Assembly: GCA_002747955.1 (NCBI GenBank)
Contig: PDQZ01000009.1
Location: 949-64,948, forward strand
DNA from: Candidatus Campbellbacteria bacterium
GTDB taxonomy: Bacteria; Patescibacteriota; Minisyncoccia; Phycocordibacterales; GCA-2747955
DNA length: 64,000 nt
Reading direction: 5' to 3'
In this document: piece after piece, positions 20,538 through 59,196 of the stretch
Layout of the letters: every line of letters starts with the position of its first letter
How positions within the stretch are numbered: the stretch's first letter is position 1
The notes under the pieces: generated by a model
The model's input: the letters and a program-made list of their open reading frames with translations, nothing else
Told to the model about the DNA's origin: nothing
Database searches by the model: none
Made by a program: the position numbers and the translations under genes

Positions 20538-20629
20538 AAAAGCCCGAAATTTTTTGCCCTTGTTTTGCTTGTGACTTGTGACAGGCAAGGCCTGTCACAA
20601 GCAAAACAGGGGCAAAAAATTTCGGGCTT
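20538..20629. terminator. ~90-bp perfect-palindrome terminator after efp with gcccgaaatttttt arms and GGCAAGGCC core
   Basis: aagcccgaaattttttgccc..gtgacaggcaaggcctgtcac..gggcaaaaaatttcgggctt. Confidence 0.7.
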
Positions 20630-20656
20630 TTATTATCACTGTGCTATAATATAAAA

Positions 20657-21475
20657 ATGAATAATAAATTTCATCTTAAAGCCAAAAAGTCTTTGGGACA
20701 AAACTTTTTAAAAGACAAAAAAATAATTGATAAAATTATAAAGGCTGGAGAGTTGAAAAAAGGAGATATTGTTTTGGAAGTTGGTCCTGGAAAAGGACAT
20801 CTAACACAAAGACTTTTAGAAAATGATATTGTTCTTTTTGCTGTTGAAAAAGACAAAAGGCTTTATGATTTTTTAGAAGAAAAGTTTCAAAAGGAAATCA
20901 AAGAAAAAAAGTTTTTTTTAATCAAAGATGATGTTTTGAATTTGGATTTTGGAAATTTGGGTCTTAAAAATCAAAAATTTAAAATTATTGCAAATTTGCC
21001 ATATTATATAACAGGACTTTTTATTTCAAAAACTTTGGAAAATAAAATTGTTCCGTCTTTGATGGTTTTGCTTTTGCAGAAAGAAGTTGTAGAGCGGGTA
21101 ACAGACAGTGAGAAAAATAAAAAAGAAAATATTTTTTCTTTGTCTATAAAAGTTTTTGGAAAAGCAAAATATATTATAACTGTTTCAAAAAAACTTTTTA
21201 AACCTGTTCCTAAAATTGATTCGGCTGTTTTGCAAATCTCAGACATTTCAAAAGAAAATTTTAAAAAGAACAACATTACAGAGCAAGAGTTTTTCGAATT
21301 TATCAAAAGTGCTTTTTCAAACAAAAGAAAACAAATGTTGAAAAATTTATCTTTGAAATATAACAAAGAAAAACTTGTAAAAATTTTTGATCAGATGAAA
21401 ATTGATCAAAAAACCCGAGCCGAAGACTTGAATTTGGAAATTTTTTTGGAGATTTTAAAAAGATATTATGACTAA
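20657..21475 (+). CDS. rsmA: 16S rRNA (adenine1518/1519-N6)-dimethyltransferase RsmA/KsgA
   Basis: ..SLGQNFLKDKKIIDKI.. KsgA N-terminal signature, ..VLEVGPGKGHLT.. SAM motif. Confidence 0.85.
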   Translation: MNNKFHLKAKKSLGQNFLKDKKIIDKIIKAGELKKGDIVLEVGPGKGHLTQRLLENDIVLFAVEKDKRLYDFLEEKFQKEIKEKKFFLIKDDVLNLDFGNLGLKNQKFKIIANLPYYITGLFISKTLENKIVPSLMVLLLQKEVVERVTDSEKNKKENIFSLSIKVFGKAKYIITVSKKLFKPVPKIDSAVLQISDISKENFKKNNITEQEFFEFIKSAFSNKRKQMLKNLSLKYNKEKLVKIFDQMKIDQKTRAEDLNLEIFLEILKRYYD

Positions 21476-21526
21476 AAAGTGAATTTAAAAAGCAAAATCA
21501 GGCGAAGCCTGATTTTGCTTTTTAAA

Positions 21527-21913
21527 TTACGGTGATGTACCTTGTAAAATAGGAACATACCCATAACCAATAATACAAATATATGGACCGCAGGTTATCA
21601 TGCAGGGAACAAGTGCTGGTGCCAAAGTTCCTTTTCCCCATTGACCTGGGTGTGAAAAACCACCAAAGTTAGCAAAAGCACGACCTCTTGATTCAGGTGT
21701 TTGCATAATAGGCATTGGAATAGGGGGTGATAAAAAATAATTTACAGATCCGTAAGTGACAGGACAATACTGAAAACTTGTCACTGAACCACCGAAAAGC
21801 AAAAGAGATGCTGAAGTTTTAGTTTCTTTTAAATTTAAAGTAAAAAAGAAGATCAAAAGTAAAATAAAAACGATTGATTTTAAGAAAATATTATTTTTTA
21901 GGTTTAATATCAT
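21527..21913 (-). CDS. small secreted Cys/Gly/Pro-rich hypothetical protein
   Basis: N-terminal signal/TM; divergent to the surface-protein locus; visibly higher GC than its surroundings. Confidence 0.5.
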   Translation of the reverse strand: MILNLKNNIFLKSIVFILLLIFFFTLNLKETKTSASLLLFGGSVTSFQYCPVTYGSVNYFLSPPIPMPIMQTPESRGRAFANFGGFSHPGQWGKGTLAPALVPCMITCGPYICIIGYGYVPILQGTSP

Positions 21914-21952
21914 AAAAATATTGTAACATATTTTTTAATTATGTGATAGAAT

Positions 21953-23005
21953 ATGAATATGAAAAAAATTTTTAACTTTTTTAAAAAAAATTTTACAACG
22001 ATACTTTATATTTTAATTTTTTTAACTTTAATTTTTTTAATTTATAAAAACTTTACGAAAGTCAAGCAGTATCAAAAACTTGAAAAAATAAAAACAGATT
22101 ATCGGAATACTAAAAAACTTGAAAAAAAAGAAAGTGATGATACAGACAATGACGGGCTTTTGGATTGGCAAGAAATTATATATAAAACAGATATTGACAA
22201 CCCAGATTCTGATGGTGACGGTATAAATGATGGAGATGAAGTTAGGGATGGAACTAATCCCCTTTCTTTTAAAAATATAAAAAATGAAGAGATTGTGGTT
22301 GTTAAAGAAAGTGTTGAAAATATAGAAAAACAAATTGCAAAAAGAAGAAAAACTCAAAAGGAACAAGAAAATCAACAGTTTAAAATTAAAAAAATTAAAT
22401 TTAAATCAAATTTAACCCAAGAAGAAAAAGATCTTTTAGCAGGCTACGATCAAGAAAATATTTTAATTAAAAAAGACATGAATATTTTGGGAAAAGTTTT
22501 TTTAGAAAATACACATTCTGTAAATGCCACTGAAGAAAGTGAAAACATGTTTTTGTTGTTTAATAATTTACTTCCTTATTCTTATGAAAAATCACAAGAA
22601 ATTTTAAAAGAAAATAATAATTTAAAGTTCGCAGAACAATTACCGGCTTATAGGGAAGTTACCGAAAGTGAAATATCAAAAATGAAAGCAAAAGCTATGT
22701 ATTATAAAAAAATTTCTGAACTTTTAAAAGAAAAAGAAAGTCAGTTGGAGTCAAAATTTTTTAATCAATATTATTTAAGTTTTTACAATACTTATAAAAA
22801 TGTTTATGTTTATCAAAGCGAACTTTTGGATTTTTATAAAAATGGAGAGGGTGATTATGAAAAAATAATAGAAAAAATTAAAAAGTATACTCAAGCAGGG
22901 CTTGAAATGGCAGACACTTATGCTTCTGTTGATAGAATGATTGATACAAGAGAACTAAAAATCAGCCCAAATGAGCCAGCTTCTTATTTTGATTTGAAAG
23001 TGTAA
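21953..23005 (+). CDS. membrane-anchored protein with thrombospondin-type-3-like Ca-binding DxDxDG repeats (paralog 1)
   Basis: N-terminal TM; DTDNDGLLDWQEIIYKTDIDNPDSDGDGINDGDEVRDGTNP; paralogous to 23103..24056. Confidence 0.65.
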   Translation: MNMKKIFNFFKKNFTTILYILIFLTLIFLIYKNFTKVKQYQKLEKIKTDYRNTKKLEKKESDDTDNDGLLDWQEIIYKTDIDNPDSDGDGINDGDEVRDGTNPLSFKNIKNEEIVVVKESVENIEKQIAKRRKTQKEQENQQFKIKKIKFKSNLTQEEKDLLAGYDQENILIKKDMNILGKVFLENTHSVNATEESENMFLLFNNLLPYSYEKSQEILKENNNLKFAEQLPAYREVTESEISKMKAKAMYYKKISELLKEKESQLESKFFNQYYLSFYNTYKNVYVYQSELLDFYKNGEGDYEKIIEKIKKYTQAGLEMADTYASVDRMIDTRELKISPNEPASYFDLKV

Positions 23006-23102
23006 GATTAAGTTTGGCCCGAAAATAGCGAAGCTATTTTCGGGTTTGTTTTTTTAAAAAAACTTTGTGAAGAGACAAAAAAAGTGTTACAATGTCTAAT
23101 AT

Positions 23103-24056
23103 ATGAATAATAATTTTAAAAAATTTTTGCCTTCAAGAAAAGTGGTAGCTTTTGTGATAGTGCCATTGTTTTTTGTTGTTTTATTTATTTTGATAGAATC
23201 TTATTTTAAAAAAGGTGAAATAGAAAAAAAAGTTGCTAAAGAAAAACTTGAAAAATCAATTAAATATAATGTTTCAGAAAAAGATACAGATGACGATGGG
23301 CTTTTAGACTGGCAAGAAAGACTTTATAAAACAGATGTAAATAATCCTGATACGGATAATGACGGAGTTTTAGATGGAAAAGAAGTTAAAAAAGGAACAG
23401 ATCCGACAGACACATTTAATAGTAAAAAATCACAAAATGATGTTAAAAAAATTAATGAGGATACTGAAAAGCAAATTTTAAACAAAGAATTAAATGTGAC
23501 AGAAAAAGTTGCAAGAGAGCTGTTTATGAAAACAGTTGATATTAAGAAGGAAGGACTGAATAAAAATATAGGGGCTTTGAATTTTGCAGCTGAAGAGCTT
23601 TATGAAGAAAGTGATATTTTTAAAATAAGCAAAATTTTAACAGAAAAAGATTTAAAAATTTCAGAGTCTGAAAATTTATATGATTTTAAGCAAAAATTCA
23701 ATAAAGTTTTACTTAAAAGAAGTAAGGTGAGTAATTTAGAAGCAGAATGGGTTGCTGCTTACAAGTTTATAGTGGAAAAAAAGGATGAAGGTAAAGAAAG
23801 TTTAGAGAAAAATTTACACTTTTATATTGTAACCCAAAAAGAGTTGTTGAAGTTGGAAGTTCCTAACGATAAAATTTTTATTAAAGTTTATCTAGATTAT
23901 TTAAATTCTTATTTTTTCATTATTGAATACATAGAACAGGTTTTAAATTATAAAGAAGATCCACTTAAAGCACTAGCATTTTTTGAATCTTTTGATAAAA
24001 TAAATGATATAATTATTAAAAGAGGTAAAGAAGTATATAAATACTTAAATGATTAA
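23103..24056 (+). CDS. membrane-anchored protein with thrombospondin-type-3-like Ca-binding DxDxDG repeats (paralog 2)
   Basis: N-terminal TM; DTDDDGLLDWQERLYKTDVNNPDTDNDGVLDGKEVKKGTDP. Confidence 0.65.
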   Translation: MNNNFKKFLPSRKVVAFVIVPLFFVVLFILIESYFKKGEIEKKVAKEKLEKSIKYNVSEKDTDDDGLLDWQERLYKTDVNNPDTDNDGVLDGKEVKKGTDPTDTFNSKKSQNDVKKINEDTEKQILNKELNVTEKVARELFMKTVDIKKEGLNKNIGALNFAAEELYEESDIFKISKILTEKDLKISESENLYDFKQKFNKVLLKRSKVSNLEAEWVAAYKFIVEKKDEGKESLEKNLHFYIVTQKELLKLEVPNDKIFIKVYLDYLNSYFFIIEYIEQVLNYKEDPLKALAFFESFDKINDIIIKRGKEVYKYLND

Positions 24057-24064
24057 ATAAAATA

Positions 24065-26410: not shown

Positions 26411-26425
26411 TTAAAAATAAACAAT

Positions 26426-26932
26426 ATGTTAATATTTACAGAAGAACAAGTTAAAAATGCTTATGATAATTCAAGTGAAGTGATGAAATCTTTGTTACTT
26501 GAAAAGTGGGTTATTGAGGATGCAACTTTTTTGGGGAGAAAATACAAGTTAAGAATGGATAAGGTTGGAAACATGAATAAGTTGATTTCTTATGTTATGT
26601 TGAATTTGTTGCCAATGTCTCGTTTTGCAGAGTACTTGAAAAAAGAACTTTTACTTGATGATCAAACAACTCTTGCGTTGACAAAAGATTTGGATAAAAA
26701 TATTTTCCAAAAAATCAAACAAGAAGTGTTGTATTATAATAGTGAAAAAAAGAAAAAGACAGATGTTAAGTCTATTTTTGAAGAAAAACAAGAAATAAAA
26801 GAAGAAAAAGATCTAAAAGGGGAAGTTAGAGATTATGGTGATATTCTAGATTCAAAAAAACAAAAAGAGGGGGCTGGTAAAAAAGAAGATGAAGACACAC
26901 TTGATCCTTATAGAACTTTTATTGATGATTAA
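26426..26932 (+). CDS. hypothetical protein (168 aa), charged C-terminus
   Basis: ORF tightly following the 781-aa gene; no motif. Confidence 0.5.
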   Translation: MLIFTEEQVKNAYDNSSEVMKSLLLEKWVIEDATFLGRKYKLRMDKVGNMNKLISYVMLNLLPMSRFAEYLKKELLLDDQTTLALTKDLDKNIFQKIKQEVLYYNSEKKKKTDVKSIFEEKQEIKEEKDLKGEVRDYGDILDSKKQKEGAGKKEDEDTLDPYRTFIDD

Positions 26933-27045
26933 AAATGTAGAAAAAATGTTTAAAAAAGCAAGTTAAAAAACTTGCTTTTTTATTGTTTTTGTTTTAAAAT
27001 ATAGGGCACTGTATTAAGAATTAAATATAGTAAATAAAATATTTT

Positions 27046-27456
27046 ATGGCAACTATAAATCAATTAGTAAGAAAAAAAAGAAAGAAACAAGTAAAAAAAC
27101 CAAAATCTGTGGTTTTATCAAAAGGTTTTGATACTCTAAAAAACAAACCTACTGAATACTTTTCTCCTTTCAAAAGAGGTGTTTGTACAAAAGTTACAAC
27201 AAAAAACCCTAAAAAACCTAACTCAGCGGTTAGAAAAATCGCCAGAGTTAAATTAACAAATGGAATTGAAGTTACAGCTTATATTCCAGGTGAAAAACAT
27301 CAACTACAAGAGCACTCAGTTGTACTTGTACGTGGAGGAAGGGTAAAGGATATTGGTGTTAGATACACTGTTGTTAGAGGTAAACTTGATGCAACAGCTG
27401 TTGAAGGAAGAAAACAAGCAAGATCAAGATACGGAGCTAAAAAACCAAAAGAATAA
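27046..27456 (+). CDS. rpsL: 30S ribosomal protein S12
   Basis: [13 protein letters not shown].. and ..[10 protein letters not shown].. S12 signatures. Confidence 0.9.
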
Positions 27457-27467
27457 TAATTATAAAT

Positions 27468-27935: not shown

Positions 27936-27997
27936 ACTTATCTTTATAGAAAATAAAAACACCCAAAAAATAAGCGGTGTTTTTTTGTTTTACCAAG

Positions 27998-28024
27998 TAT
28001 TAACAGGCAAGGCTTATTAACGCT
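27998..28024. repeat. GGCAAGGC-core palindromic element (degenerate copy)
   Basis: tattaacaggcaaggcttattaacgct, cf 59168-59196 agcgttaacaggcaaggcctgttaacgct. Confidence 0.55.
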
Positions 28025-28257
28025 TGATTTTTGTATGAAAATGGTATATAATTATGTGTGAAGTTTTTAACTTCATATTTTTTTCATGGGAGTCCTTGAC
28101 CCGAGCATGCGCTCGGGTCTTTTTTGTGTTTGCACTATTTTTTAAAAAAGTTATAATATTGTGGAGGTTCACGTAATCTCCTTTTAGTGGTTGATTCTTT
28201 GCCCGAGTATACGCTCGGGCTTTTTTTATTTTTAAAATTTTTGTTATAATATGTTAA

Positions 28258-30106: not shown

Positions 30107-30167
30107 TTTAGTTTAAAACACCATTTAACAAAGTTAAATGGTTTTTTTTTTAAATTCAAAAAATTTA

Positions 30168-30214
30168 AGGCAAGGCCTTGTTAAGGCAAGGTCTTAACAA
30201 GGCCTTGCCTTGAA
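30168..30214. repeat. nested palindrome built from caagg/ccttg units (GGCAAGGCC family)
   Basis: aaggcaaggccttgttaag-gcaaggt-cttaacaaggccttgcctt (19-bp arms). Confidence 0.7.
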
Positions 30215-30275
30215 TTTGGGAGATAAGGTATTTCAACTTTATGGAGTTTTTAAAGTTTTGTGATAAAATGTAAAT

Positions 30276-32326: not shown

Positions 32327-32404
32327 TTTGAAAAAGTTTTTGGAAAAAGTTGAAAGGCTTGTGCCTTTCAACTTTTTCCAAAAACTTTTTCAAAATTTCG
32401 GGTT
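32327..32404. terminator. long nested-palindrome terminator (gcccgaaattttg..tttttggaaaaa.. family)
   Basis: agcccgaaattttgaaaaagtttttggaaaaagttgaaaggcttgtgcctttcaactttttccaaaaactttttcaaaatttcgggt; related element at 40264-40350. Confidence 0.7.
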
Positions 32405-36101: not shown

Positions 36102-36102
36102 A

Positions 36103-36158
36103 AAACAAAAACCGCAAAATTTGACAAACACAAAAACGCAGTCAAATTTTGCGGTTTT
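36103..36158. terminator. long hairpin terminator after rplC
   Basis: aaaaaccgcaaaatttgac..gtcaaattttgcggttttt. Confidence 0.7.
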
Positions 36159-36294
36159 TAACTTAAAAAACTCCAACACCAAGCTTTTAAAAACTTTTCC
36201 ACATCTATATTTTTAAAGCATTTATATAAAAACTTAATTTTGATATAATATTTGTATAAATATAGCAATATATTTTAATTAAATAAAAACAAAT

Positions 36295-36693
36295 ATGAAA
36301 AAAACATTTTTAGCAACAGCTATTTTAGCTATTGCACCAGCAATAACATTTGCTGCACAACAAAATAATGATACTCTTTTTACAAAAGCAACAGGTTGGA
36401 TAAGTACTTTAAACGTGATTTTGTTCTCAGTGGTGGTCCTTGCGTTTACAACTGGAGTTGCTCTTTACGTTTTTGATAAAGAAAAAAATCCAGAAAAACT
36501 AAAATCAAGAATTTTGTGGCCTTTAGTTGCTGTTATTGTTTTGGCTTCTTTGTGGGGGATAGTAAAGTTGGTTCAAACTACTATATTTGGTTCAGGAAAT
36601 CAAAACAATGCTGGTGATATTACAGCTCCAGCATTGCCAGGAGCGGGGACATCAACATCAACACAAACACAAAACATAGGTCCACAAATATAG
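36295..36693 (+). CDS. small secreted membrane protein; signal peptide + two TM helices (VirB2/TrbC-pilin-like topology, tentative)
   Basis: MKKTFLATAILAIAPAITFA|AQQ signal peptide, two hydrophobic helices, Gly/Thr/Ser-rich tail; inserted between rplC and rplD. Confidence 0.5.
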   Translation: MKKTFLATAILAIAPAITFAAQQNNDTLFTKATGWISTLNVILFSVVVLAFTTGVALYVFDKEKNPEKLKSRILWPLVAVIVLASLWGIVKLVQTTIFGSGNQNNAGDITAPALPGAGTSTSTQTQNIGPQI

Positions 36694-36750
36694 AATATAT
36701 TTACAAAAAACCGCCAAGCAAAAGGTGGTTTTTTAAATCATAAGAAAAAA

Positions 36751-36798
36751 CAAGGCCTTGCCTTAACAAGGCCTTGCCTTGTTAAGGCAAGGCCTTAA
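36751..36798. repeat. nested palindrome of the GGCAAGGCC family
   Basis: caaggccttgccttaacaaggccttgccttgttaaggcaaggcctta (18-bp arms, loop ccttg). Confidence 0.7.
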
Positions 36799-37031
36799 AT
36801 AATTTCTTATAAAATGTGTTTTTATTTTATTATTAGAGGAAGGGTTTATAAAAAATATTAAAAAACCAAAAGTAGAAAAAACTGGGTGGTTGTGTTTGTT
36901 TTTTCTGCTTTTTTGTTGAAGCTGTTTATTTGATGCAATGGTACATTTCTTGACTTTATTTAATATATATTGTATTATGTATATGGTTTTCTATAAACCA
37001 TTTTTTTAGTTAAACTCGATAGGAGAAAAAA

Positions 37032-37397
37032 ATGAAAAAATTTTTATTTTTGCAATTAGTTTTTTTGGCAAGCATCGTTAAAGCAGGGCTTGCCCCCATG
37101 CCAGAATTTAAGCTGGGTCAAGAAAACATGAGCTTCGTTAAAGTTTGGCTTAAACGAAACTTAAATTGTAAAAAAGAAATGCTTGATGATTTTGGATATA
37201 AGTATATGGGGCAAGCTTATATCAAACAAGATGGTGAGTGGAGGCACTCATTTTTAATATATGTCCCTGATTGCATAAAGTTAACACCGTTTTTTATTGG
37301 AGAAAAAAACTTGGTGTTAATTAAAAACGGAGATTCGCCCGAAAATTTTCAAGACGAAAATTTTCGGAAAATATATAATCAAAAAATGAAAAAATAA
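37032..37397 (+). CDS. secreted hypothetical protein (121 aa)
   Basis: RBS aggagaaaaaaATG; signal peptide MKKFLFLQLVFLASIVKA. Confidence 0.5.
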   Translation: MKKFLFLQLVFLASIVKAGLAPMPEFKLGQENMSFVKVWLKRNLNCKKEMLDDFGYKYMGQAYIKQDGEWRHSFLIYVPDCIKLTPFFIGEKNLVLIKNGDSPENFQDENFRKIYNQKMKK

Positions 37398-37676
37398 AGT
37401 TCATATATTAGCTTTGTGACAGGCTTTGTCTGTCACTTTTTTTATTAAAAAATTTTTGGCATTTTGAGTTTTTTATGTTATAATACAAGGAAATTTTGAG
37501 AGAATTTTTAAAAGTTTTTAGATAGTTTGCCCGAAAAAAAGCGAAGCTTTTTTTCGGGGGAACAATTTTGAAAGTTTTTAATTTTCAAAAAAAGTTTGGC
37601 ATCTTTTTAAAAAAATGTCTCGGAGAAATCCCATTATCAATGACCGAAATTAAGTAAGTCAATAATAAAATTTATT

Positions 37677-40253: not shown

Positions 40254-40263
40254 AAAAAAAAAT

Positions 40264-40350
40264 CTGCCCGAAATTTTGAATAGAATTTTTGGAAAAAAAG
40301 AAGTCTTCGACTTCCTTTTTTCCAAAAATTCTATTCAAAATTTCGGGCAG
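40264..40350. terminator. long nested-palindrome terminator (gcccgaaattttgaa..tttttggaaaaa.. family)
   Basis: tgcccgaaattttgaatagaatttttggaaaaaaagaagtcttcgacttccttttttccaaaaattctattcaaaatttcgggcag. Confidence 0.7.
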
Positions 40351-40428
40351 TTTTTTCTTTTTCTATTTTCTGATTTTGCCAGCACCAAACATTGAATTTA
40401 ATATTTATTTTGTTATTATTATGTTAAT

Positions 40429-46089: not shown

Positions 46090-46223
46090 AAAATAAAGCA
46101 CGAAATTTTAAAAAAGAAAAAAACAAGCGAAGCTTGTTTTTTCTTTTTTAAAATTTCGTGCTTTATTTCCATACTCCATTTTTTCATTGACTTTTTTCGT
46201 TTTTAAATGTATGATTAGTTTAT

Positions 46224-49722: not shown

Positions 49723-50406
49723 TTACAATAAAATTTTTGAACATAAGCACAAAGCTGCATTTTCAGCTTTTAAAACATTGGATGTTTTAAAAGATAAAAT
49801 CTTTTCTTTTTCAAAAAGTTTCATTTCTCTTTCAGACAAACCACCTTCAGGCCCTATAACACAAGCTTTGATATTCTTTATATCAATTTCATTTATATTT
49901 TGACCACCAAAATTTAAAACAAAAGAGTTTGGATTTTCTTTTAAAAAATCATCTAAACTGTTTTTAAAATCAAGTTTCATTAAACTTCCTCTGCCACATT
50001 GCTCACAAGAGTTGATTAAAATTTTTTGAAGTTTTTCTTTTTTTAGCTTAAAACTTTTTTGACTCAAATCAGAATATATAAAGGTGATTTTTTCAACTCC
50101 TGTTTGGTTTAAGTATGGCAAAACTTCTTTGATGCTTTTCGGATCAATGATACAAAAACCTAAATGAAAATTATTTTGATTTTCATTTTTAACTTCTTCT
50201 CTGCTTTCCAAAACTAAAAAAGCTTTTTTGTTTTGAACACTTTGGATTTTGTAAGAATAATCAAAGTCATCTTTCAGATTTTTTAAAATCACAATATCAT
50301 TCTCTTTTTGCCTTCTTGATTTTACTAAGTGATTAAAAAGGTCATTTTTAATTTCAAGTTTTTCTTTTGAAGCGTCGGGACTGTAAAAAAAATTTCTAAA
50401 ATTCAT
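49723..50406 (-). CDS. rsmE: 16S rRNA (uracil1498-N3)-methyltransferase RsmE
   Basis: C-terminal SPOUT motif VIGPEGGLSEREM (cf IGPEGGF.E.E). Confidence 0.7.
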   Translation of the reverse strand: MNFRNFFYSPDASKEKLEIKNDLFNHLVKSRRQKENDIVILKNLKDDFDYSYKIQSVQNKKAFLVLESREEVKNENQNNFHLGFCIIDPKSIKEVLPYLNQTGVEKITFIYSDLSQKSFKLKKEKLQKILINSCEQCGRGSLMKLDFKNSLDDFLKENPNSFVLNFGGQNINEIDIKNIKACVIGPEGGLSEREMKLFEKEKILSFKTSNVLKAENAALCLCSKILL

Positions 50407-50453
50407 AAATATATTTTAACATAAAATCATTAAAATTTTAGCATATGAAAAAT

Positions 50454-50512: not shown

Positions 50513-50538
50513 TCTTTAAATTTTGGTATAATGAAATC

Positions 50539-51063: not shown

Positions 51064-51088
51064 TTATAAAACATTAATTTAAATAAAT

Positions 51089-51628: not shown

Positions 51629-51671
51629 AAAAGATTGATTTTATAATAAAATAAGGTATAATATAAAAATT

Positions 51672-52319: not shown

Positions 52320-52406
52320 TTTTGAAAAAACAATCAATTTTAAAATTGATGTTTTTTTATAAAAAATATATTTTGTAAAGTTTTTTTAAAATGTTAAAAT
52401 TAAAAA

Positions 52407-53108: not shown

Positions 53109-53665
53109 TGAAAAAATCAGTTATTTTAGACAATCAAGAAGTTTTTTATACAGAAGAAAAGTCAAGCAGACTTAAAAATATAAAAATTGTTTTTAAATCT
53201 CAAAACGAACTTCAAATCAAAAGACCTAAAAAACTTTTATTTTTTAATGCTCAAAAATTTATTTTAAAAAATAAAACTTTGATTTTAAAAAAATTACAAA
53301 AGTTAAAACAGCAAAATTTACAGAAAGTTTCTTTAAGTCAAAAAGAATTTCAAAAAAGAAAAGATGATTTTTTAAAGAAAGCCGAAGAAAAGGTGGAATA
53401 CTTCAACTCTTTTTACAATTTTAAATACAACAAAATCACAATTAAAAACCAAAAAACAAAATGGGGTTCTTGTTCATCAAAAGGAAATTTAAATTTTAAT
53501 TACAGAATTTTTCTGCTTGATCAAAAAATTTTAAATTACGTTATCGTTCACGAGCTTTGTCATTTAGATCAAATGAATCACTCAAAAAAATTTTGGAATC
53601 TGGTTGAGCAAACAATCCCTGATTATAAAGAAACTAAAAAGTTAATGCAAAAATATATTTTTTAG
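53108..53665 (+). CDS. YgjP/DUF45-family metal-dependent hydrolase
   Basis: C-terminal HEXXH (VIVHELCHLDQMNHSKKFW). Confidence 0.6.
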   Translation: MKKSVILDNQEVFYTEEKSSRLKNIKIVFKSQNELQIKRPKKLLFFNAQKFILKNKTLILKKLQKLKQQNLQKVSLSQKEFQKRKDDFLKKAEEKVEYFNSFYNFKYNKITIKNQKTKWGSCSSKGNLNFNYRIFLLDQKILNYVIVHELCHLDQMNHSKKFWNLVEQTIPDYKETKKLMQKYIF

Positions 53666-53690
53666 TTTAAAAAATAAATATGATATAATT

Positions 53691-54737
53691 TTGTTTATGT
53701 TTAAGAAAAAAAAGAAAAATATTTGGCAAAAGTTGAAGTACAAAAAACCCGAAGGGTTTTTTGTGCTAGCTCCCATGGCCGACGTAACCGACAATCCTTT
53801 TCGAAAAATTATAAATCAAATCGGAAAACCTGATTTGTTTTACACAGAATTTGGGGCAACAGACGGGCTTGCTTCTGAAAAAGGGTATAAAAGAATTAAA
53901 ACTCAAATTTTTAATTTTGAAAAGAATCAAAAACCAATCATCGCTCAGATTTTTGGTGGAAAACCCGAAAATTACAAAGAAGTTGCAAAAAAAGTTGCAA
54001 ATATGGGTTTTGATGGAATTGATTTAAATACAGGTTGCCCTCAAAAAAACATTTTAAAACAAAAATCAGGTTCTGAACTGATCAAAGAAGAAAACTGGGA
54101 CCTGGTGCGACAAATTATTCAAAACATTAAAAAAGGAATAAAAGAAAGCAAAAACCAAATTCCATTTTCCTTAAAAACAAGAATTGGTTTTAATCAATAC
54201 AACAAAGAATGGATAAAATTTTTGTTAGAACAAAAACTTGATGCTTTGATTATTCACTTGCGAACTAAAAAAGAAATGTCAAAAGTTCAGGCTCACTGGG
54301 AGCTTGCTAAAGAACTTACAGAGCTTAAAAACAAAATTTCTCCCAACACAGTTTTGATTTTCAATGGAGATATAAAATCTAAAAAAGAAGGTTTTCAGAA
54401 ACTTAAAGAAAATGGTGCAGACGGAATTATGATTGGTCGAGGAATTTTTGAAAATCCAACTTTATTTAGAGACCAAGATTTTTCGAAAAAAAGTGTTCAA
54501 GAAAAAACAAAAATAATGTTAAAACACGCAAAATATTTTGAAAAAGAGTTTGGAAAAACTTTTAAAAACAAAATTTTGTTTGGTGGACGAATAAAACCAT
54601 TTGCTTTGATGAAAAAGTTTTTCAAAATTTACATAAACGGTTTTGATGGAGCAAAAGAATTTAGAGAACATTTAATGAAAGCAAATAGTTTAAAAGAAGT
54701 TGAACAAGTAGTTAAAAACCATCTGAAAAAACTTTAA
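53691..54737 (+). CDS. tRNA-dihydrouridine synthase
   Basis: ..FVLAPMADVTDNPFRKI.. Dus N-terminal signature, TIM-barrel length. Confidence 0.85.
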   Translation: MFMFKKKKKNIWQKLKYKKPEGFFVLAPMADVTDNPFRKIINQIGKPDLFYTEFGATDGLASEKGYKRIKTQIFNFEKNQKPIIAQIFGGKPENYKEVAKKVANMGFDGIDLNTGCPQKNILKQKSGSELIKEENWDLVRQIIQNIKKGIKESKNQIPFSLKTRIGFNQYNKEWIKFLLEQKLDALIIHLRTKKEMSKVQAHWELAKELTELKNKISPNTVLIFNGDIKSKKEGFQKLKENGADGIMIGRGIFENPTLFRDQDFSKKSVQEKTKIMLKHAKYFEKEFGKTFKNKILFGGRIKPFALMKKFFKIYINGFDGAKEFREHLMKANSLKEVEQVVKNHLKKL

Positions 54738-54975
54738 AAATGAGCACATAACTTTGTTGGCTTCGTGTAAAAATATTTTCAACGTACTTCAAGTACGTCT
54801 CAAATATTTTTCACTCGCCGCCTCGTTATGTATCTCATTTTTAAATTTTTTAAAAAAACTTGAAAAATAAGTTTCTAACTTTGTCAATCGCACACAAAAA
54901 ACCTCTCACCGTAATGCCCATACGACTCGAGGATTTTTTGTTTGTTTCCGCGTTATATATCTTATTTTTTAAGTT
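54738..54975. repeat. modular ~115-125 bp intergenic repeat, 2 tandem units (same family as the 13324 and 58366 arrays)
   Basis: Unit 1 carries tcaacgtacttcaagtacgtctcaa, identical to the 13324 array unit 2 and the 58366 array unit 1; unit 2 carries cctctcaccgtaatgcccatacgactcgagg + T-run. Confidence 0.8.
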
Positions 54976-54992
54976 TTTAAATAAGAAACATT

Positions 54993-55030
54993 GAGATAGG
55001 CCTTGCCTTGAGATAGGCAAGGCCTATCTC
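54993..55030. repeat. GGCAAGGCC-family palindrome
   Basis: gagataggccttgcc-ttgagata-ggcaaggcctatctc. Confidence 0.7.
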
Positions 55031-55046
55031 AGATCTGTCTCAAATG

Positions 55047-55103
55047 AAAAAGCCCATTTTCGCTCAACTTTAATTTTAAGAAGTGCGAAAATGGGCTTTT
55101 TTA
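55047..55103. repeat. 55-bp gcccattttcgc hairpin element, copy 3
   Basis: aaaaagcccattttcgctcaactttaattttaagaagtgcgaaaatgggctttttt; near-identical to 16652-16708. Confidence 0.75.
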
Positions 55104-55133
55104 TTTCAGCACAAAAATGTTATAATAATTTTA

Positions 55134-56021
55134 ATGGTTTATATTTCAAAAAAAAGAAGAAAATATTTAATTGAAAAAAAAATTAAAAAGTTTTTTTTCA
55201 AATTTCTTGTACCCATAATTTCACTTTTTATTTTAACTATTTTCTTACACAATGCACAGTTTATGAAAATTAAAAATTTCAACATTGTAGGAAATAAATA
55301 TGTTTCAAAAGAAGATATTCAAAATCAATTCGACACAATTTTACAAGAAAAATATTTTGGAATTTACAACAAGAACAATTTTATCTTTTATCCTGAAAGT
55401 CAAATGGAAAAAGTGCTTTTGGAAAATCAAAAAAGAATTAAAAACATCGATATTTCTTATCAAAATTTAAGAAAAATAAAAATCGAAATTGAAGAAAAAG
55501 ATCCAAAATATTTATTTTGCTTTGAAAAAGAAAAGTGCAATTTCACAGAATACAACGGTAAAATTTTCACCCCCTTCAATCAAGAAAAAACCGAAATCAA
55601 AAGAGGTGATTTTGTTGTTTTCCAAGATTTATTTTTAGGATATGTTAACCAAGATGAAACAGAGGTTTTACGAGACTTTCAAAATTATAACCAAGTTTAC
55701 ACACCTTCTTTATTTGAAAAAGTAACCACACTTTTAAAAGCTTTTGAAAACTACAACTTAAGCATTAAAAAAGTCATCAGGAACAAAGACGGAAATTTTG
55801 TTTTGTACACAAAAAGCAACAAAAAAATTTTAATTAAATACAACCAAGATTTTGAAAAAATTATCCCAACTTTAAAAACATTATCTCAAAAGAAAATATT
55901 CAGAGTAGACAAATTCGAAAAAGATTTTAACTCAGATTTGATTTATGTTGATTTAACATATCAAGATTACATTTTTTATTGTCAAAAAGGAGAGGTTTGT
56001 CAGAACAATTATGTTTATTAA
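55134..56021 (+). CDS. FtsQ/DivIB-like cell-division protein (POTRA-like), tentative
   Basis: N-terminal TM then ..FMKIKNFNIVGNKYVSKEDI.. POTRA-like pattern; start moved to ATG 55134 (after tgttataat) because the listed start lies inside a terminator hairpin. Confidence 0.4.
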   Translation: MVYISKKRRKYLIEKKIKKFFFKFLVPIISLFILTIFLHNAQFMKIKNFNIVGNKYVSKEDIQNQFDTILQEKYFGIYNKNNFIFYPESQMEKVLLENQKRIKNIDISYQNLRKIKIEIEEKDPKYLFCFEKEKCNFTEYNGKIFTPFNQEKTEIKRGDFVVFQDLFLGYVNQDETEVLRDFQNYNQVYTPSLFEKVTTLLKAFENYNLSIKKVIRNKDGNFVLYTKSNKKILIKYNQDFEKIIPTLKTLSQKKIFRVDKFEKDFNSDLIYVDLTYQDYIFYCQKGEVCQNNYVY

Positions 56022-56076
56022 AATATTTTAAAAAGTGAAAATATATGTTAAAATATGGAAGTATTTAACTAAATAA

Positions 56077-56346
<270 letters not shown>

Positions 56347-56364
56347 TAACAAAAAACAATAATC

Positions 56365-56808
56365 ATGCAAGAAATAATAAATTCATTCGGACTTGATTGG
56401 AAAATTTTTACAGCAGAAATTGTAAACTTTATTATTATTTTGTTTATACTTTACTATTTTTTATTTAGAAAAGTTTTTGCAAATTTAGAAAAAAGGCAAG
56501 AAATAATAAAAAAAGGAGTTGAAAAAGGAGAGGAAGCAGAAAAGATTGTAAACGATGCTGAAAAGAAAGCAGATGATATTTTGGCAGATTCAAGGCTTGA
56601 TGCAAACGACAGAGTAAAAGAAAGTATGCAAAAAGCAAAAGATAAAGAAGCTGAAATTTTAAAAGAAGCTGAAACTTTAAAATCACAGATTTTAGAAAGA
56701 GCAGAAAAAGCAGGGGAAAAAAGAAAAGAAGATATTCTGAAAAATATAGACAAAGATATTGCAAAGTTAGCGGTTTTAGGAGCTGAAAAAGTTTTATCTG
56801 AGAAATAA
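56365..56808 (+). CDS. atpF: F0F1 ATP synthase subunit b
   Basis: N-terminal TM plus long charged coiled coil; directly after atpE. Confidence 0.75.
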   Translation: MQEIINSFGLDWKIFTAEIVNFIIILFILYYFLFRKVFANLEKRQEIIKKGVEKGEEAEKIVNDAEKKADDILADSRLDANDRVKESMQKAKDKEAEILKEAETLKSQILERAEKAGEKRKEDILKNIDKDIAKLAVLGAEKVLSEK

Positions 56809-56866
56809 AAACACAAAAGTTTGAGCACTTTGGTGTTTTTTATTTGTTTGTGTTTTTTCAAAAAAT

Positions 56867-57055
56867 ATGTTATTTTATACAAAATATACAAATATGTTAA
56901 AAAAAAGAGATAAAAAGAAATTCTATATAATGGTTGGAGTTTTTATCATTATAATTGTTTCAACAATCACTTTTAGATCTTTTATCAAAGATGCCTTTGT
57001 ACACGACCCTAGTTTAAAAAAAGATTTAAAAAATAAAGCCCAAATATCAGAATAA
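56867..57055 (+). CDS. small hypothetical TM peptide (62 aa)
   Basis: ORF with a single TM; weak support. Confidence 0.3.
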   Translation: MLFYTKYTNMLKKRDKKKFYIMVGVFIIIIVSTITFRSFIKDAFVHDPSLKKDLKNKAQISE

Positions 57056-57140
57056 TTTTAAAATAAGTTGTCAACGGCTTTTTCACAGTCGTTTTTTATT
57101 TTGCTTTACAAAATTTATTTTAGTGATATAATAAGTTATT

Positions 57141-57650
57141 ATGAGTAAAAAAAATACAATATTGTTAATAATCATTTTGATTATAGTAGTTTGGTTTATC
57201 GGAGCGATTTACTATTTCACATGTAATGTGCAAGGGTACTGTGGTTCAAAACCAGTTTCTAAATACCAAAAAAGCAACAGATATTACGAATACGACAACA
57301 GAGATGATGAATATCAAGAAAGAAGTGTAAGGAACGTAAGAAGAGTTGAAACAAGAAAAAAAGTAACTAAAAAATATACTTGTTCAGCATACTTAAAAGG
57401 ATTTATCAAATATGGTTCTAGAAATTCTGTATCAGAAACAGCAAAACTTGAAAAGTTTTTACAAGATCATCTAGGGGCTGATGTGGAGCTTGATGGATAT
57501 TATTCTAAAACAGACAGAGATTATGTAAAACAAATTCAAGAAGAAAACGGACAAGAACCAGACGGGGTTGTAGGAAAAGATACAAGAGAAGTGATAAATA
57601 AAATTTATTGTAAAGCAAAAGTCAAGGAGTATAAAGAAAAAAATAATTAA
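57141..57650 (+). CDS. membrane-anchored protein with peptidoglycan-binding (PG_binding_1-like) domain
   Basis: N-terminal TM; ..LEKFLQDHLGADVELDGYYSKTDRDYVKQIQEENGQEPDGVVGKDTREVI.. Confidence 0.5.
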   Translation: MSKKNTILLIIILIIVVWFIGAIYYFTCNVQGYCGSKPVSKYQKSNRYYEYDNRDDEYQERSVRNVRRVETRKKVTKKYTCSAYLKGFIKYGSRNSVSETAKLEKFLQDHLGADVELDGYYSKTDRDYVKQIQEENGQEPDGVVGKDTREVINKIYCKAKVKEYKEKNN

Positions 57651-57660
57651 AATATAAAAT

Positions 57661-58365
57661 ATGAGAGAAATTCTAGTAAATAAAAGTGGAGAAAGTGTAG
57701 TTTTTGAAATCTTTGTTTTGATGTTCGTGTCGTTTATTTTAGGTTATGTTGTCAGATTGGTATATGAAAAATTCTTTTTATATGAACAAGTAAATGATGA
57801 CTTTTACGACGATATAGAAGACAAATACATTAAAGATGATTTGACAAATTCATATAACCAACAAGGACTTGATAATTTTGACCAAAACATTGAAAATGTT
57901 GATTTTTCAGATTCAAAAAAAAATCATTTTGAAACAAAATCAAACAAAGAAAACATAAATCAACAAGAAAATAATCAAGAAAAAGAAAAAACAGATTATC
58001 AAAGCTATATTTCTCTTGATAAATCACAAAATCAAGAAATTATAAACAGTAACAATATTGAAGAAATTAAACAAAGTGTGGTAAAAAGCACATTGTCTCC
58101 TTATTCTGAAATAGAAATGCAGGACTTAAAAATCGTAGACGGAGTTGGTCCTAAAATTGAACTTTTGTTAAAAAGAAATGGAATTGAAAACTTAAAAGTT
58201 CTTTCTGAAACTTCTCTTGAAAGATTAAATCAAATTCTAGATACAGCAGGTGATAAATACGCTTTTCATAACCCAGCTTCATGGGCAGAACAAGCAGAAC
58301 TTGCTTTAAAGGGGAATTTGAATGAGTTAAGCGAATTTCAAGACTATATATCAGCAAAAAAATAA
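57661..58365 (+). CDS. membrane-anchored protein with C-terminal helix-hairpin-helix motif
   Basis: N-terminal TM, acidic/Q-N-rich linker, ..DLKIVDGVGPKIELLLKRNGIENLKVLSETSLERL.. HhH-like. Confidence 0.5.
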   Translation: MREILVNKSGESVVFEIFVLMFVSFILGYVVRLVYEKFFLYEQVNDDFYDDIEDKYIKDDLTNSYNQQGLDNFDQNIENVDFSDSKKNHFETKSNKENINQQENNQEKEKTDYQSYISLDKSQNQEIINSNNIEEIKQSVVKSTLSPYSEIEMQDLKIVDGVGPKIELLLKRNGIENLKVLSETSLERLNQILDTAGDKYAFHNPASWAEQAELALKGNLNELSEFQDYISAKK

Positions 58366-58615
58366 AGAAAAAAACGTTAAAAATTAGTTCATAATTTTGT
58401 TGACTTCGTAAAAAATATTTTCAACGTACTTCAAGTACGTCTCAAATATTTTTCACTCGTCGCCTCATTATGAATCTAATTTTTAACGTTTTTTAGGTTG
58501 CAAAAATCTTTGTTGACTGCACAAAAATACCCTCACCGTAATAACGCATACGACTCGGGTATTTTTTATTTGTCGCCTCGATTTTTATCTAATTTCTGCT
58601 ATTTTTTAAATTGTA
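58366..58615. repeat. modular ~115-125 bp intergenic repeat, 2 tandem units (same family)
   Basis: Unit 1 ..ttttcaacgtacttcaagtacgtctcaaatatttttcactcgtcgcctc..; unit 2 ..ccctcaccgtaataacgcatacgactcgggtatttttt.. Confidence 0.8.
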
Positions 58616-58813
58616 TTTTTTTTTAATAAACGCAATTTTGACGAAGCCAAAATTGCGTTTATTTTTGTGTTAAAACAAAAAAGCACCATTATACTTATAC
58701 ACTTTTTGCTTTTCTAACCTATTGATAGTTTTTATTTTTTTGATATTATATTTTTAAGGAGCTTTTGTTCCAAAAAAGGCTCCGGTTATTATTAAATTTA
58801 AAATATTCAAAAA

Positions 58814-59080
58814 ATGGAAAGTAAGACAGATGTGGAATTTCTGGAAATGATTGTAAAACAAATCGTTCAAAATCCTGATGATGTAAAAGTCGAAAGGGTA
58901 GTGGATGAAATGGGAGTACTTCTAACACTTAAGGTTCACAAAGACGATATGTCACAAGTGATCGGAAAAAGCGGTAGAACTGCTTCTGCAATCAGAACTC
59001 TATTGAGAGTTGTTGGAATGAAAAACAATTCAAGAGTAAATTTAAAAATAGACGAGCCGGAAGGTGGAATGAGAGAATAA
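58814..59080 (+). CDS. KH-domain RNA-binding protein (KhpA/UPF0109-like)
   Basis: ..VIGKSGRTASAIRTLL.. KH GXXG motif; 88 aa. Confidence 0.7.
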   Translation: MESKTDVEFLEMIVKQIVQNPDDVKVERVVDEMGVLLTLKVHKDDMSQVIGKSGRTASAIRTLLRVVGMKNNSRVNLKIDEPEGGMRE

Positions 59081-59167
59081 AAATTTTAAATTATAATATA
59101 CAAAAAACTTTGATAAAAACAAAAACCGCTTCGCGGTTTTTGTTTTTTTATTTTTTATTCTTAACCA

Positions 59168-59196
59168 GCGTTAACAGGCAAGGCCTGTTAACGCTT
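59168..59196. repeat. GGCAAGGCC-family palindrome
   Basis: agcgttaacaggc-aa-ggcctgttaacgct just after terminator aaaaaccgcttcgcggttttt. Confidence 0.7.

What the first reader, a model, noticed from the sequence alone, without database searches (positions are those of the whole stretch)
20538..59196. Family of GGCAAGGCC-core palindromic elements at six intergenic sites
Perfect or near-perfect palindromes built around ggcaaggcc / caaggccttg recur at 20579-20599, 27998-28024, 30168-30214, 36751-36798, 54993-55030 and 59168-59196. The arms vary (ttaacagg/cctgttaa, gagatagg/cctatctc, gtgacagg/cctgtcac) but the GC-rich core is constant. In this AT-rich genome that is conspicuous. Several sit directly 3' of an ordinary intrinsic terminator, so they are not needed for termination. 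Candidates are a REP-like element, a binding site for a dimeric regulator or nucleoid protein, or an RNA structural motif.
Basis: seen in the sequence. Interest (0 to 1): 0.55.

Follow-up and report, generated by a model that had tools for sequence, protein, structure and literature searches.

The report
Dispersed hairpin repeat family, REP-like
A tiny uncultivated bacterium (Candidatus Campbellbacteria) carries a real, genome-specific family of small hairpin-forming DNA repeats between its genes; they behave like the selfish or structural "extragenic palindromes" known from other bacteria, so this is a modest new variant rather than a new kind of system.

Summary
GGCAAGGCC occurs 9 times in the window against 0.09 expected. 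All copies lie in the 13% of the window that is non-coding.

The motif is not itself a palindrome. It is the apex of a hairpin, AGGC-AAG-GCCT, with a 3-nt loop. The stem continues for 10-26 bp with arms that differ between loci but stay complementary: 9 of 13 stem pairs show changes on both sides.

An eighth lies on another contig of the same genome bin. Sites 3, 4 and that eighth copy are three 16-nt units in tandem, and each folds into a 21-23 bp hairpin.

The copies sit between the upstream gene's terminator and the next promoter, beside unrelated housekeeping genes. One copy (site 2) has decayed. Two (site 1 and 37416) serve as the only terminator of their gene. About 130 kb from seven related genomes has none.

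Best reading: a lineage-specific family of extragenic palindromes, REP/BIME-like in anatomy and placement, and terminator-shaped like SPRITE and TRIT. It is probably selfish or neutral DNA, occasionally co-opted as a terminator.

It is not a member of the REP/RAYT family as defined: no GTAG or CGTC tag, and no transposase seen. A dimeric-regulator operator is not supported. Interest is modest.

The parts
20538..20631 (.). Site 1. A 94-nt near-perfect palindrome that starts 6 nt after the efp stop codon. Its apex hairpin is 20575-20601 (CTTGTGACAGGC-AAG-GCCTGTCACAAG) and its core is 20583-20593. The left arm carries a 7-nt tandem duplication, TTGTGAC. A-run and T-run flanks make it the only terminator-like structure between efp and ksgA.
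   Evidence: DNA fold -46.6 kcal/mol, z = -14. The same sequence appears in an independent Logan assembly (L001 is identical over 16658-23045).
27994..28026 (+). Site 2. A decayed copy of the TTAACA-core subfamily. The core is AGGCAAGGCTT at 28005-28015. Its 3' end abuts a TTGATT-17-TATAAT promoter-like site at 28024-28052.
   Evidence: Fold -1.9 kcal/mol, z = 0. 25 of 27 positions identical to site 6 over the hairpin.
30161..30217 (.). Site 3. Three 13-nt units, AAGGCAAGGCCTT at 30167-30179, AAGGCAAGGTCTT at 30183-30195 and AAGGCCTTGCCTT at 30199-30211, spaced 16 nt apart with GTT and AAC linkers. The whole element folds as a 26-bp hairpin. It lies 8 nt after the T-run of the preceding terminator (30120-30152) and upstream of murG.
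   Evidence: Fold -26.1 kcal/mol, z = -9.8.
36740..36810 (.). Site 4. Three units at 36752-36764, 36768-36780 and 36784-36796 form a perfect 21-bp hairpin with a CTT loop, plus outer arms ATAAGAAA/TTTCTTAT. It lies directly after the terminator of a T4SS-pilin-like ORF, inside a 1.6-kb insertion between rplC and rplD.
   Evidence: Fold -28.5 kcal/mol, z = -9.2. 46 nt identical to the copy on L004.
37416..37436 (+). Seventh, degenerate copy: GTGACAGGCTTTGTCTGTCAC followed by TTTTTTT. It has the same arms as site 1, and its core is GGCCTTGCC with two C>T changes. It is the only terminator of ORF 37032-37397.
   Evidence: two mismatches; -6.6 kcal/mol, z = -4.8; flagged terminator-like on the + strand.
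54992..55031 (.). Site 5. Two units, GGCCTTGCC at 54999-55007 and GGCAAGGCC at 55016-55024. They form either a 17-bp hairpin with a 6-nt loop or a 10-bp hairpin TGAGATAGGC-AAG-GCCTATCTCA. The two 17-mers TTGAGATAGGC[CTT/AAG]GCC are identical apart from the inverted loop. The element lies between a pair of unrelated ~125-nt repeats and a long terminator hairpin.
   Evidence: Fold -19.7 kcal/mol, z = -7.2.
59167..59195 (+). Site 6. A perfect 13-bp hairpin, AGCGTTAACAGGC-AAG-GCCTGTTAACGCT, followed by TATTTTTGTTTG. It lies about 20 nt after the hairpin stem of khpA's own terminator (59115-59147) and about 10 nt after that terminator's T-rich tail.
   Evidence: flagged terminator-like on the + strand. 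Fold -14.8 kcal/mol, z = -6.3.

Best explanation
This is a lineage-specific family of dispersed extragenic palindromes in one Candidatus Campbellbacteria genome.

Anatomy (shown). Each copy is a hairpin whose apex is the invariant 11-mer AGGC-AAG-GCCT, a 4-bp GC clamp around a 3-nt loop. Its arms differ between subfamilies but stay complementary. There are four subfamilies: TTAACA arms (sites 2 and 6), GTGACA arms (site 1 and 37416), GAGATA arms (site 5), and tandem 16-nt multimers (sites 3, 4 and L004).

Origin (shown in part). The copies arose by duplication; subfamilies with two or more near-identical copies show this. They accumulate in the one slot of this compact genome where extra DNA is harmless: the few dozen bases between a gene's terminator and the next promoter.

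How it works (inferred). The element acts at the level of nucleic-acid structure, as a very stable stem-loop in single-stranded DNA or RNA. Most copies are probably neutral or selfish passengers. Where a T-tract follows on the sense strand, the hairpin has been co-opted as the gene's intrinsic terminator (site 1, 37416, perhaps site 6).

How it spreads and stays paired (inferred, not shown). The likeliest route is a trans-acting enzyme that recognises the folded apex in single-stranded DNA, as RAYT and IS200/IS605 transposases do for REPs. The other candidate is intrastrand template switching that copies one arm onto the other. Template switching would also explain the many long perfect palindromic terminators in this genome.
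For: Enrichment and strictly non-coding placement.

Hairpin constraint: 89% of stem cells are paired. 9 of 13 pairs have changes on both sides. 0 of 500 shuffles reach the observed covariation score. Controls with the 3' partner slid by 1-3 columns pair only 19-41% of cells. Six of the eight folded copies fold with z between -6 and -14, 37416 folds more weakly (z = -4.8), and site 2 does not fold stably.

Duplicative origin: site 2 and site 6 are 25/27 identical over the hairpin. Site 4 and the L004 copy are identical over 46 nt and share outer arms. Site 1 and 37416 share the GTGACAGGC arms.

L004 belongs to the same MAG: NCBI accessions PID83085 versus PID83255 and PID83281 belong to one consecutive batch.

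Neutral decay: site 2 has lost its fold and 37416 has two core mutations.

No shared function among flanking genes.

Placement after an ordinary terminator at sites 2, 3, 4, 6 and L004.

Lineage restriction: zero exact cores in L002, L006, L007, L008, L012, L014 and L015. These carry RplC, SecA or MurG at 66-74% identity and total about 130 kb. Nothing was found in the phage, plasmid or viral collections.

Distinct from ordinary terminators in the window: those have diverse stems, TTC or GAA loops and A/T-run flanks.

Known analogues with the same placement logic: REPs (PMC3733652), SPRITE (PMC3049150), TRIT (PMC3152330).
Against: Only about 70 kb of one metagenome-assembled genome could be examined, so genome-wide copy number is an extrapolation.

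No transposase or other partner was found. None of the window ORFs scanned against Pfam is an HUH/Y1 enzyme. The ORFs flanked by elements are membrane or secreted proteins.

No empty site or target-site duplication could be examined, so mobility is inferred, not shown.

Only 11 nt are shared across subfamilies. That is far less than in typical REP families, where the whole 20-40 nt is conserved.

Sites 3, 4 and 5 have a T-tract only on the antisense strand. That could mean a selected function rather than neutrality.

Covariation in palindromes can arise from the way they are generated, without selection.
Confidence: 0.55

Rival explanations
1. A dedicated family of intrinsic terminators or insulators, in the way TRIT is proposed to be for mycobacteria. 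Under this reading the conserved apex gives a fast-folding, very stable RNA hairpin, and every copy is selected to stop transcription. That includes antisense or read-through transcription entering from either side of a gene boundary.
For: Site 1 and 37416 are the sole terminators of their genes. Site 6 is followed by TATTTTTG. Sites 3, 4 and 5 are flagged terminator-like on the minus strand, because an A-run precedes them on the plus strand. The L004 copy has T-rich tracts on both sides. TRIT and SPRITE are precedents for sequence-conserved, terminator-shaped repeats (PMC3152330, PMC3049150).
Against: Sites 2, 3, 4, 6 and L004 follow an ordinary terminator that already ends the upstream gene. 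All neighbouring genes are on the plus strand, so nothing known needs minus-strand termination. Site 2 has decayed without replacement. Thermodynamics does not require an identical 11-mer apex, since the window's other terminators use many different stems. T- and A-runs are common in 25% GC intergenic DNA.
Confidence: 0.2
2. A true REP/RAYT system (a REPtron). Under this reading the hairpins are substrates of a single-copy HUH tyrosine transposase encoded elsewhere in the genome, which cleaves and re-joins the folded single strand at the replication fork.
For: The elements share several traits with REPs and BIMEs as described in PMC3733652 and PMC8266576. They are small extragenic palindromes and are clustered. 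Units occur in both loop orientations. They lie downstream of genes and are restricted to one lineage. A second REP group with perfect palindromes is known (PMC8266576).
Against: There is no unpaired GTAG or CGTC tag beside any copy (sequence, compared with PMC3733652). No Y1/HUH gene was found in the window. Conservation is limited to 11 nt. To my knowledge no RAYT has been described in Patescibacteria, and I did not check this.
Confidence: 0.12
3. An operator or nucleoid-protein site. Under this reading a dimeric DNA-binding protein recognises AGGC-N3-GCCT in duplex DNA, and the 16-bp-phased triple units are cooperative arrays.
For: The core has the form of a 4-3-4 inverted repeat. The spacing is exactly 16 bp in three compound loci. 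Site 2 touches a -35 box.
Against: The central AAG/CTT is invariant, which a spacer need not be. The arms outside the core are complementary at every locus but differ in sequence, which duplex recognition does not explain. The distance to the downstream promoter varies widely, and the distance to the downstream gene start runs from 25 to 325 nt. The flanking genes are functionally unrelated.
Confidence: 0.06
4. A DNA-uptake-signal-like tag. Patescibacteria depend on DNA import, and paired uptake sequences form terminator-like hairpins in Neisseria and Haemophilus (from my own knowledge, not checked here).
For: A GC-rich 9-mer is over-represented and often occurs in inverted pairs. One relative's locus encodes a ComEC-type competence protein.
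Against: There are no copies in coding DNA, although coding DNA is 87% of the window. Single copies still carry complementary arms that an uptake tag does not need. Density is about 1 per 5 kb, far below that of known uptake sequences.
Confidence: 0.04

Closest known systems
REP / BIME (REPIN) elements of Proteobacteria and their RAYT (TnpA-REP) transposases
   Same: Both are small extragenic palindromes that fold as hairpins. Both lie downstream of genes between co-directional ORFs and occur singly or as clusters of units in both orientations. Both are species- or lineage-specific families with subfamilies and decayed copies (PMC3733652, PMC8266576).
   Different: This family has no GTAG or CGTC tag and no RAYT has been seen. 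Only an 11-nt apex is shared across subfamilies, instead of the whole 20-40 nt. The units are 13 nt with 3-nt linkers and differ only in their loop. The host is a reduced Patescibacteria genome.
[quoted passage not shown]
   Same: Both are dispersed, terminator-shaped hairpin repeats with simple A-run/T-run ends. Both lie close to gene 3' ends, have no identified transposase, and are thought to be parasitic DNA that is sometimes co-opted as a terminator (PMC3049150).
   Different: SPRITE is an AT-rich 18-bp duplex plus a long U-rich tract, and the whole element is conserved. Here the conserved part is a GC-rich apex, and many copies lack a sense-strand T-tract.
TRIT (Tuberculosis Rho-independent terminator motif)
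   Same: Both are sequence-conserved palindromic hairpins at gene ends. Both are largely bidirectional because they are palindromic, and both are restricted to one lineage. TRIT has 147 copies per genome (PMC3152330).
   Different: TRITs overlap the stop codon, around position -8. These elements usually lie after a separate ordinary terminator. The sequences are not similar.
Ordinary intrinsic terminators of this same genome
   Same: Both are perfect palindromes with a GC-rich apex and a 3-nt loop. Site 1 and 37416 act in that position.
   Different: Ordinary terminators have diverse stems, TTC or GAA loops and A-run/T-run flanks. The family has one invariant apex, AAG or CTT loops, and mostly lacks flanking runs on the sense strand.

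Membership tests
REP/RAYT (REPtron) | Short (20-40 bp) palindromic repeat, extragenic, in multiple dispersed copies | tested here: met
   Seven loci in 64 kb plus one on another contig of the same MAG. All are non-coding.
REP/RAYT (REPtron) | Conserved unpaired GTAG or CGTC tag at one end of the hairpin (PMC3733652) | tested here: not met
   Neither tetranucleotide lies next to any of the hairpins read.
REP/RAYT (REPtron) | Cognate HUH/Y1 transposase gene (RAYT) in the genome, flanked by the repeats | tested here: inconclusive
   None was found among the window ORFs scanned. ORFs bracketed by elements are membrane or secreted proteins. The rest of the genome could not be retrieved.
REP/RAYT (REPtron) | Units clustered in opposite orientation (BIME/REPIN) | tested here: met
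   Sites 3, 4, 5 and L004 hold 2-3 units with both loop orientations at 16-17 nt spacing.
MITE | Terminal inverted repeats plus a target-site duplication | tested here: inconclusive
   The whole element is a palindrome. No direct repeats flank the copies. The only duplication seen, TTGTGAC in site 1, is internal. No empty site was available for comparison.
Intrinsic (Rho-independent) terminator | GC-containing hairpin followed at once by a T-tract on the sense strand of the upstream gene | tested here: inconclusive
   Met at site 1, site 6 and 37416. At sites 3, 4 and 5 the T-tract is on the antisense strand only.
TIGR array (TIGR-Tas) | Alternating 8-12 nt edge and loop repeats with ~9-nt variable spacers, 5-15 units, next to a Nop-domain Tas gene (PMC12045711) | tested here: not met
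   The units are identical with fixed 3-nt linkers and no variable spacers, and there are at most 3 per locus. No Nop-domain hit was found among the neighbouring ORFs scanned.
Operator of a dimeric transcription factor | Conserved half-site sequence at a fixed position relative to the promoters of a regulon | tested here: not met
   The arms covary instead of being conserved. The distance to the next gene varies from 25 to 325 nt. The neighbouring genes are unrelated.
DNA uptake sequence (DUS/USS) | Short motif over-represented throughout the genome, including coding DNA | tested here: not met
   There are 0 copies in the 55 kb of coding DNA.
Rfam RNA families | Match to a curated covariance model | tested here: not met
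   Only tRNA-Asn reaches the gathering score. At E <= 1 the elements hit only generic hairpin (miRNA-precursor) models far below threshold.

The most novel reading that the evidence does not exclude
The 11-13 nt apex hairpin is itself the mobile or seeding unit, which would make it the smallest such unit known. Under this reading an unidentified enzyme or replication-linked process in this Patescibacteria lineage recognises the folded AGGC-AAG-GCCT hairpin in single-stranded DNA. It then either inserts the hairpin into the loops of existing hairpins or uses it as a fold-back primer that copies the adjacent flank. That would create perfect palindromes, and so new terminators, from local sequence. 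It would explain the constant apex with locus-specific arms, the self-similar triple units, and the unusually high density of long perfect palindromes in this genome: 6.3 per 10 kb against 0.9-4.2 in relatives.
Probability: 0.1. Interest if true: 0.7.

Novelty: new variant of a known kind. Interest (0 to 1): 0.35.

Why it matters
Small dispersed palindromes are well studied in Proteobacteria, pneumococci and mycobacteria. I found no description of any in Candidate Phyla Radiation / Patescibacteria, whose genomes are tiny and thought to carry little repetitive DNA.

A family with a constant 11-nt apex and freely covarying arms is a clean natural experiment on what keeps a hairpin intact: selection, or template-switch correction. 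It could also point to an unknown hairpin-recognising enzyme.

Practically, these elements and the long perfect palindromes around them are likely break points in short-read assemblies of such genomes. They can also be mistaken for regulatory sites or small-RNA genes.

Tried and rejected
Whole-collection scans with the 19-mer AAGGCAAGGCCTTGTTAAG:
- Genome contigs gave 0 hits.
- Metagenome contigs gave 3 hits. Two (L003, L005) are chance matches inside GC-rich coding DNA. One (L004) is genuine but comes from the same MAG.
- Viral contigs, scanned with three patterns, gave only chance hits in GC-rich phages.
- blastn of site 4 against phages and plasmids found nothing.

Cross-organism conservation. 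I first read L004 as a second organism. The consecutive NCBI accessions showed it is the same bin, so that argument was withdrawn.

Restriction-modification idea. A relative encodes an NgoPII-type enzyme and a methylase; from my own knowledge NgoPII recognises GGCC. But GGCC is neither avoided nor enriched in the window: 35 observed against 36.7 expected.

Other hypotheses rejected. TIGR arrays were rejected on anatomy. An integron attC resemblance (GTTAA.../...TTAAC arms) was rejected: the core sites do not fit GTTRRRY, there is no integrase, and the neighbours are housekeeping genes with their own promoters. A link to the T4SS-pilin-like genes holds for only 2 of 8 loci, and those two proteins are only 23% identical, so I treat it as coincidence.

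Retrieving more of the genome. Look-ups failed for the NCBI MAG contigs. The Logan contigs lie inside the window.

Orthologous 'empty sites'. These were not obtainable. Relatives are not syntenic at the relevant junctions, or carry other inserts there.

Literature. A full-text search for the motif returned only primers and unrelated sequences.

Full report
**Source of the window.** The window is about 30% GC and nearly all its genes are on the + strand. Its SecA and RplC are 100% identical to NCBI proteins of a metagenome-assembled 'Candidatus Campbellbacteria bacterium' (Patescibacteria/CPR), on a contig of 101,496 bp. An independent Logan assembly of run SRR6011893 reproduces window 16658-23045 exactly, including site 1, so that element is not an assembly artefact.

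**Observation.**
- GGCAAGGCC occurs 9 times against 0.09 expected, and 12 times against 2.6 expected with one mismatch.
- All nine exact copies share the 11-mer AGGCAAGGCCT.
- All loci are non-coding. Non-coding DNA is 13.4% of the window and only 25% GC, so the expected count there is about 0.001. The chance that seven loci all fall there is about 8e-7.
- GGCC itself is at expectation, 35 against 36.7. The signal is therefore the specific motif, not tetranucleotide bias.

**Anatomy.**
- The 9-mer is not a palindrome. It is GGC, then a 3-nt loop AAG, then GCC. The reverse orientation differs only in the loop (CTT).
- Around this apex each locus is a perfect or near-perfect palindrome:
  - site 1: CTTGTGACAGGC-AAG-GCCTGTCACAAG, at the tip of a 94-nt palindrome;
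  - site 6: AGCGTTAACAGGC-AAG-GCCTGTTAACGCT;
  - site 5: TGAGATAGGC-AAG-GCCTATCTCA.
- Sites 3 and 4 are three 13-nt units (AAGGC-AAG/CTT-GCCTT) at exactly 16-nt spacing with GTT or AAC linkers. Each whole element is a 21-26 bp hairpin whose arms contain the same unit as its apex.
- As single-stranded DNA the elements fold at -15 to -47 kcal/mol with z-scores from -6 to -14. Site 2 is the exception (-1.9 kcal/mol, z = 0): it has mutated in core and arms.
- A seventh copy, GTGACAGGCTTTGTCTGTCAC at 37416-37436, has site 1's arms and a core with two C>T changes.
- An alignment of the eight apex hairpins gives 89% paired cells. 9 of 13 pairs have changes on both sides, and 0 of 500 shuffles reach the observed covariation score. 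Structures with the 3' partner slid by 1-3 columns pair only 19-41% of cells.

**Subfamilies and duplication.**
- Sites 2 and 6 are 25/27 identical across the hairpin.
- Site 4 and a copy found by a metagenome scan (L004, PDWI01007257.1) are identical over 46 nt and share outer arms AAGAAA/TTTCTT.
- L004 is not another organism. Its protein accession PID83085.1 (locus tag CSB11_03060) falls in the same consecutive NCBI batch as the window's PID83255.1 and PID83281.1. It is an eighth locus of the same genome.
- Whole hairpins have therefore been copied to new places. Between subfamilies the arms have changed while staying complementary.

**Context.**
- The flanking genes are efp|ksgA, rpsG|unknown membrane protein, unknown|murG, T4SS-pilin-like|unknown, dus|ftsQ-like and khpA|gatC. 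They show no regulon logic.
- At sites 2, 3, 4, 6 and L004 the element lies within about 20 nt after the T-run of an ordinary terminator and before the next promoter-like site.
- Site 1 and 37416 are themselves the only terminator-like structures after their genes.
- Sites 3, 4 and 5 have a T-tract only on the minus strand.
- The window's ordinary terminators form a separate class. They have diverse stems, TTC or GAA loops and A-run/T-run flanks. Only the family shares one apex.
- No Rfam family matches.
- None of the window ORFs scanned by Pfam is a transposase or HUH enzyme. The ORFs bracketed by elements are membrane or secreted proteins.

**Distribution.**
- Seven loci from relatives have no exact core: L002, L006, L007, L008, L012, L014 and L015. 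They carry MurG, SecA or RplC at 66-74% identity and total about 130 kb.
- The GTDB representative genomes have no match to the compound 19-mer. Viral, phage and plasmid collections have nothing relevant.
- As far as can be seen, the family is specific to this genome. Its genome-wide copy number could not be measured, because the rest of the MAG was not retrievable.

**Interpretation.**
- The family has the anatomy and habits of extragenic palindromic repeats. REP/BIME elements are 20-40 bp palindromes downstream of genes, often paired in opposite orientation, and lineage-specific (PMC3733652, PMC8266576). SPRITE and TRIT are sequence-conserved, terminator-shaped hairpin repeats near gene ends (PMC3049150, PMC3152330).
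- Four points favour mostly neutral or selfish DNA that is sometimes co-opted as a terminator: the decayed copies, the unrelated neighbours, the placement in the 'dead zone' between transcription units, and the absence from relatives.
- It is not a REP in the strict sense. There is no GTAG or CGTC tag, no RAYT has been seen, and only 11 nt are shared across subfamilies.
- The mechanism of spread is inferred, not shown. One candidate is a hairpin-recognising single-strand transposase acting in trans. The other is template switching or fold-back copying nucleated by the stable apex.
- Fold-back copying would also fit this genome's high density of long perfect palindromes: 6.3 per 10 kb with stems up to 40 bp, against 0.9-4.2 per 10 kb in relatives.
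- A duplex operator for a dimeric protein is disfavoured by the covarying arms and by the variable distance to promoters.
- A DNA-uptake tag is disfavoured by the complete absence of the motif from coding DNA.
- TIGR arrays and integron attC sites were rejected on anatomy.

**Verdict.** This is a real, non-random, well-defined family, and a new variant of a known kind of element in an unusual host. Interest is modest (0.35), because function and mobility remain inferred and only about 70 kb of one MAG could be examined.

Noticed in passing
window 13321-13695 (3 tandem copies), 14528-14577 (partial), 54725-54980 (2 copies), 58368-58615 (2 copies); L012 7262-7630 (3 copies); L014 10612-10722: A second, unrelated repeat of about 125 nt occurs in tandem arrays in intergenic DNA. 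It has conserved motifs (CTTTGT, CTCACCGTA...TACG, TCG) and folds as a long imperfect hairpin, with 26 of 33 predicted pairs showing compensatory changes. Unlike the GGCAAGGCC family it is shared with related genomes, where it lies directly after rplC. It may be a MITE-like element or a multi-copy structured RNA. No Rfam match.
   Followed up: partly
window, e.g. 40254-40365, 46090-46180, 32337-32384, 16645-16706, 55045-55100: Most terminators here are long perfect palindromes with stems up to 40 bp, TTC or GAA 3-nt loops (GCTTCGC / GCGAAGC apex) and symmetric A-run/T-run flanks. Density is 6.3 per 10 kb, against 0.9-4.2 per 10 kb in relatives. Several share base clamps (CCCGAAA...TTTCGGG, or AAAAGCCCATTTTCGC...GCGAAAATGGGCTTTT in three copies).
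   Followed up: partly
window 61297-61321 and 62064-62088, flanking 61370-62033: A toxin-antitoxin pair is bracketed by two copies of the same hairpin, CCCTCGCCGAC-TTC/GAA-GTCGGCGAGGG, which differ only by loop inversion. The toxin is Gp49/HigB-like by Pfam. The adjacent ORF looks like an XRE-type HTH antitoxin, judged from its sequence and not scanned. The pair is thus a cassette flanked by inverted repeats.
   Followed up: no
window 36102-37676; L012 7274-8898; L014 10619-13050: The rplC-rplD junction of the S10 operon is interrupted in this clade by 1.5-2.4 kb of variable content (small membrane or pilin-like ORFs and repeats) that differs between genomes. It appears to be a hot spot for insertions.
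   Followed up: partly
L014 10001-10618 (RplC), L014 10760-11155, L012 7701-7955; window genes: Relatives L014 and L012 have in-frame TGA codons in called genes. In L014 RplC the TGA aligns with a Trp (TGG) of the window's RplC, which suggests UGA = Trp there. In the window TGA is almost unused: stop codons are TAA 52, TAG 11 and TGA 1, and no convincing in-frame TGA was found.
   Followed up: partly
window 28045-28127 and 28150-28235: Two tandem mini-units lie right after site 2, each with a TATAAT-type promoter-like site and a GC-rich terminator (GACCCGAGC...GCTCGGGTC and GCCCGAG...CTCGGGC). They are candidates for small RNAs or leader transcripts upstream of the 441-aa membrane protein.
   Followed up: no
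window 59295-59475: A GC-rich, structured-looking stretch ending in a terminator lies between site 6 and gatC. No Rfam family matches it even at E <= 1. It may be an unclassified leader or small RNA.
   Followed up: no
window 10116-10206 and 50348-50438; 9727-10011 and 10451-10735: A 91-nt intergenic segment is repeated at 87% identity 40 kb apart. Two adjacent paralogous ORFs of unknown function (173 and 157 aa) are 78% identical at the DNA level.
   Followed up: no
L006 4927-6664: A relative with SecA at 71% identity carries an NgoPII-type restriction enzyme and a cytosine methylase next to SecA. From my own knowledge NgoPII recognises GGCC. GGCC is not depleted in the window, so this does not explain the motif.
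   Followed up: yes
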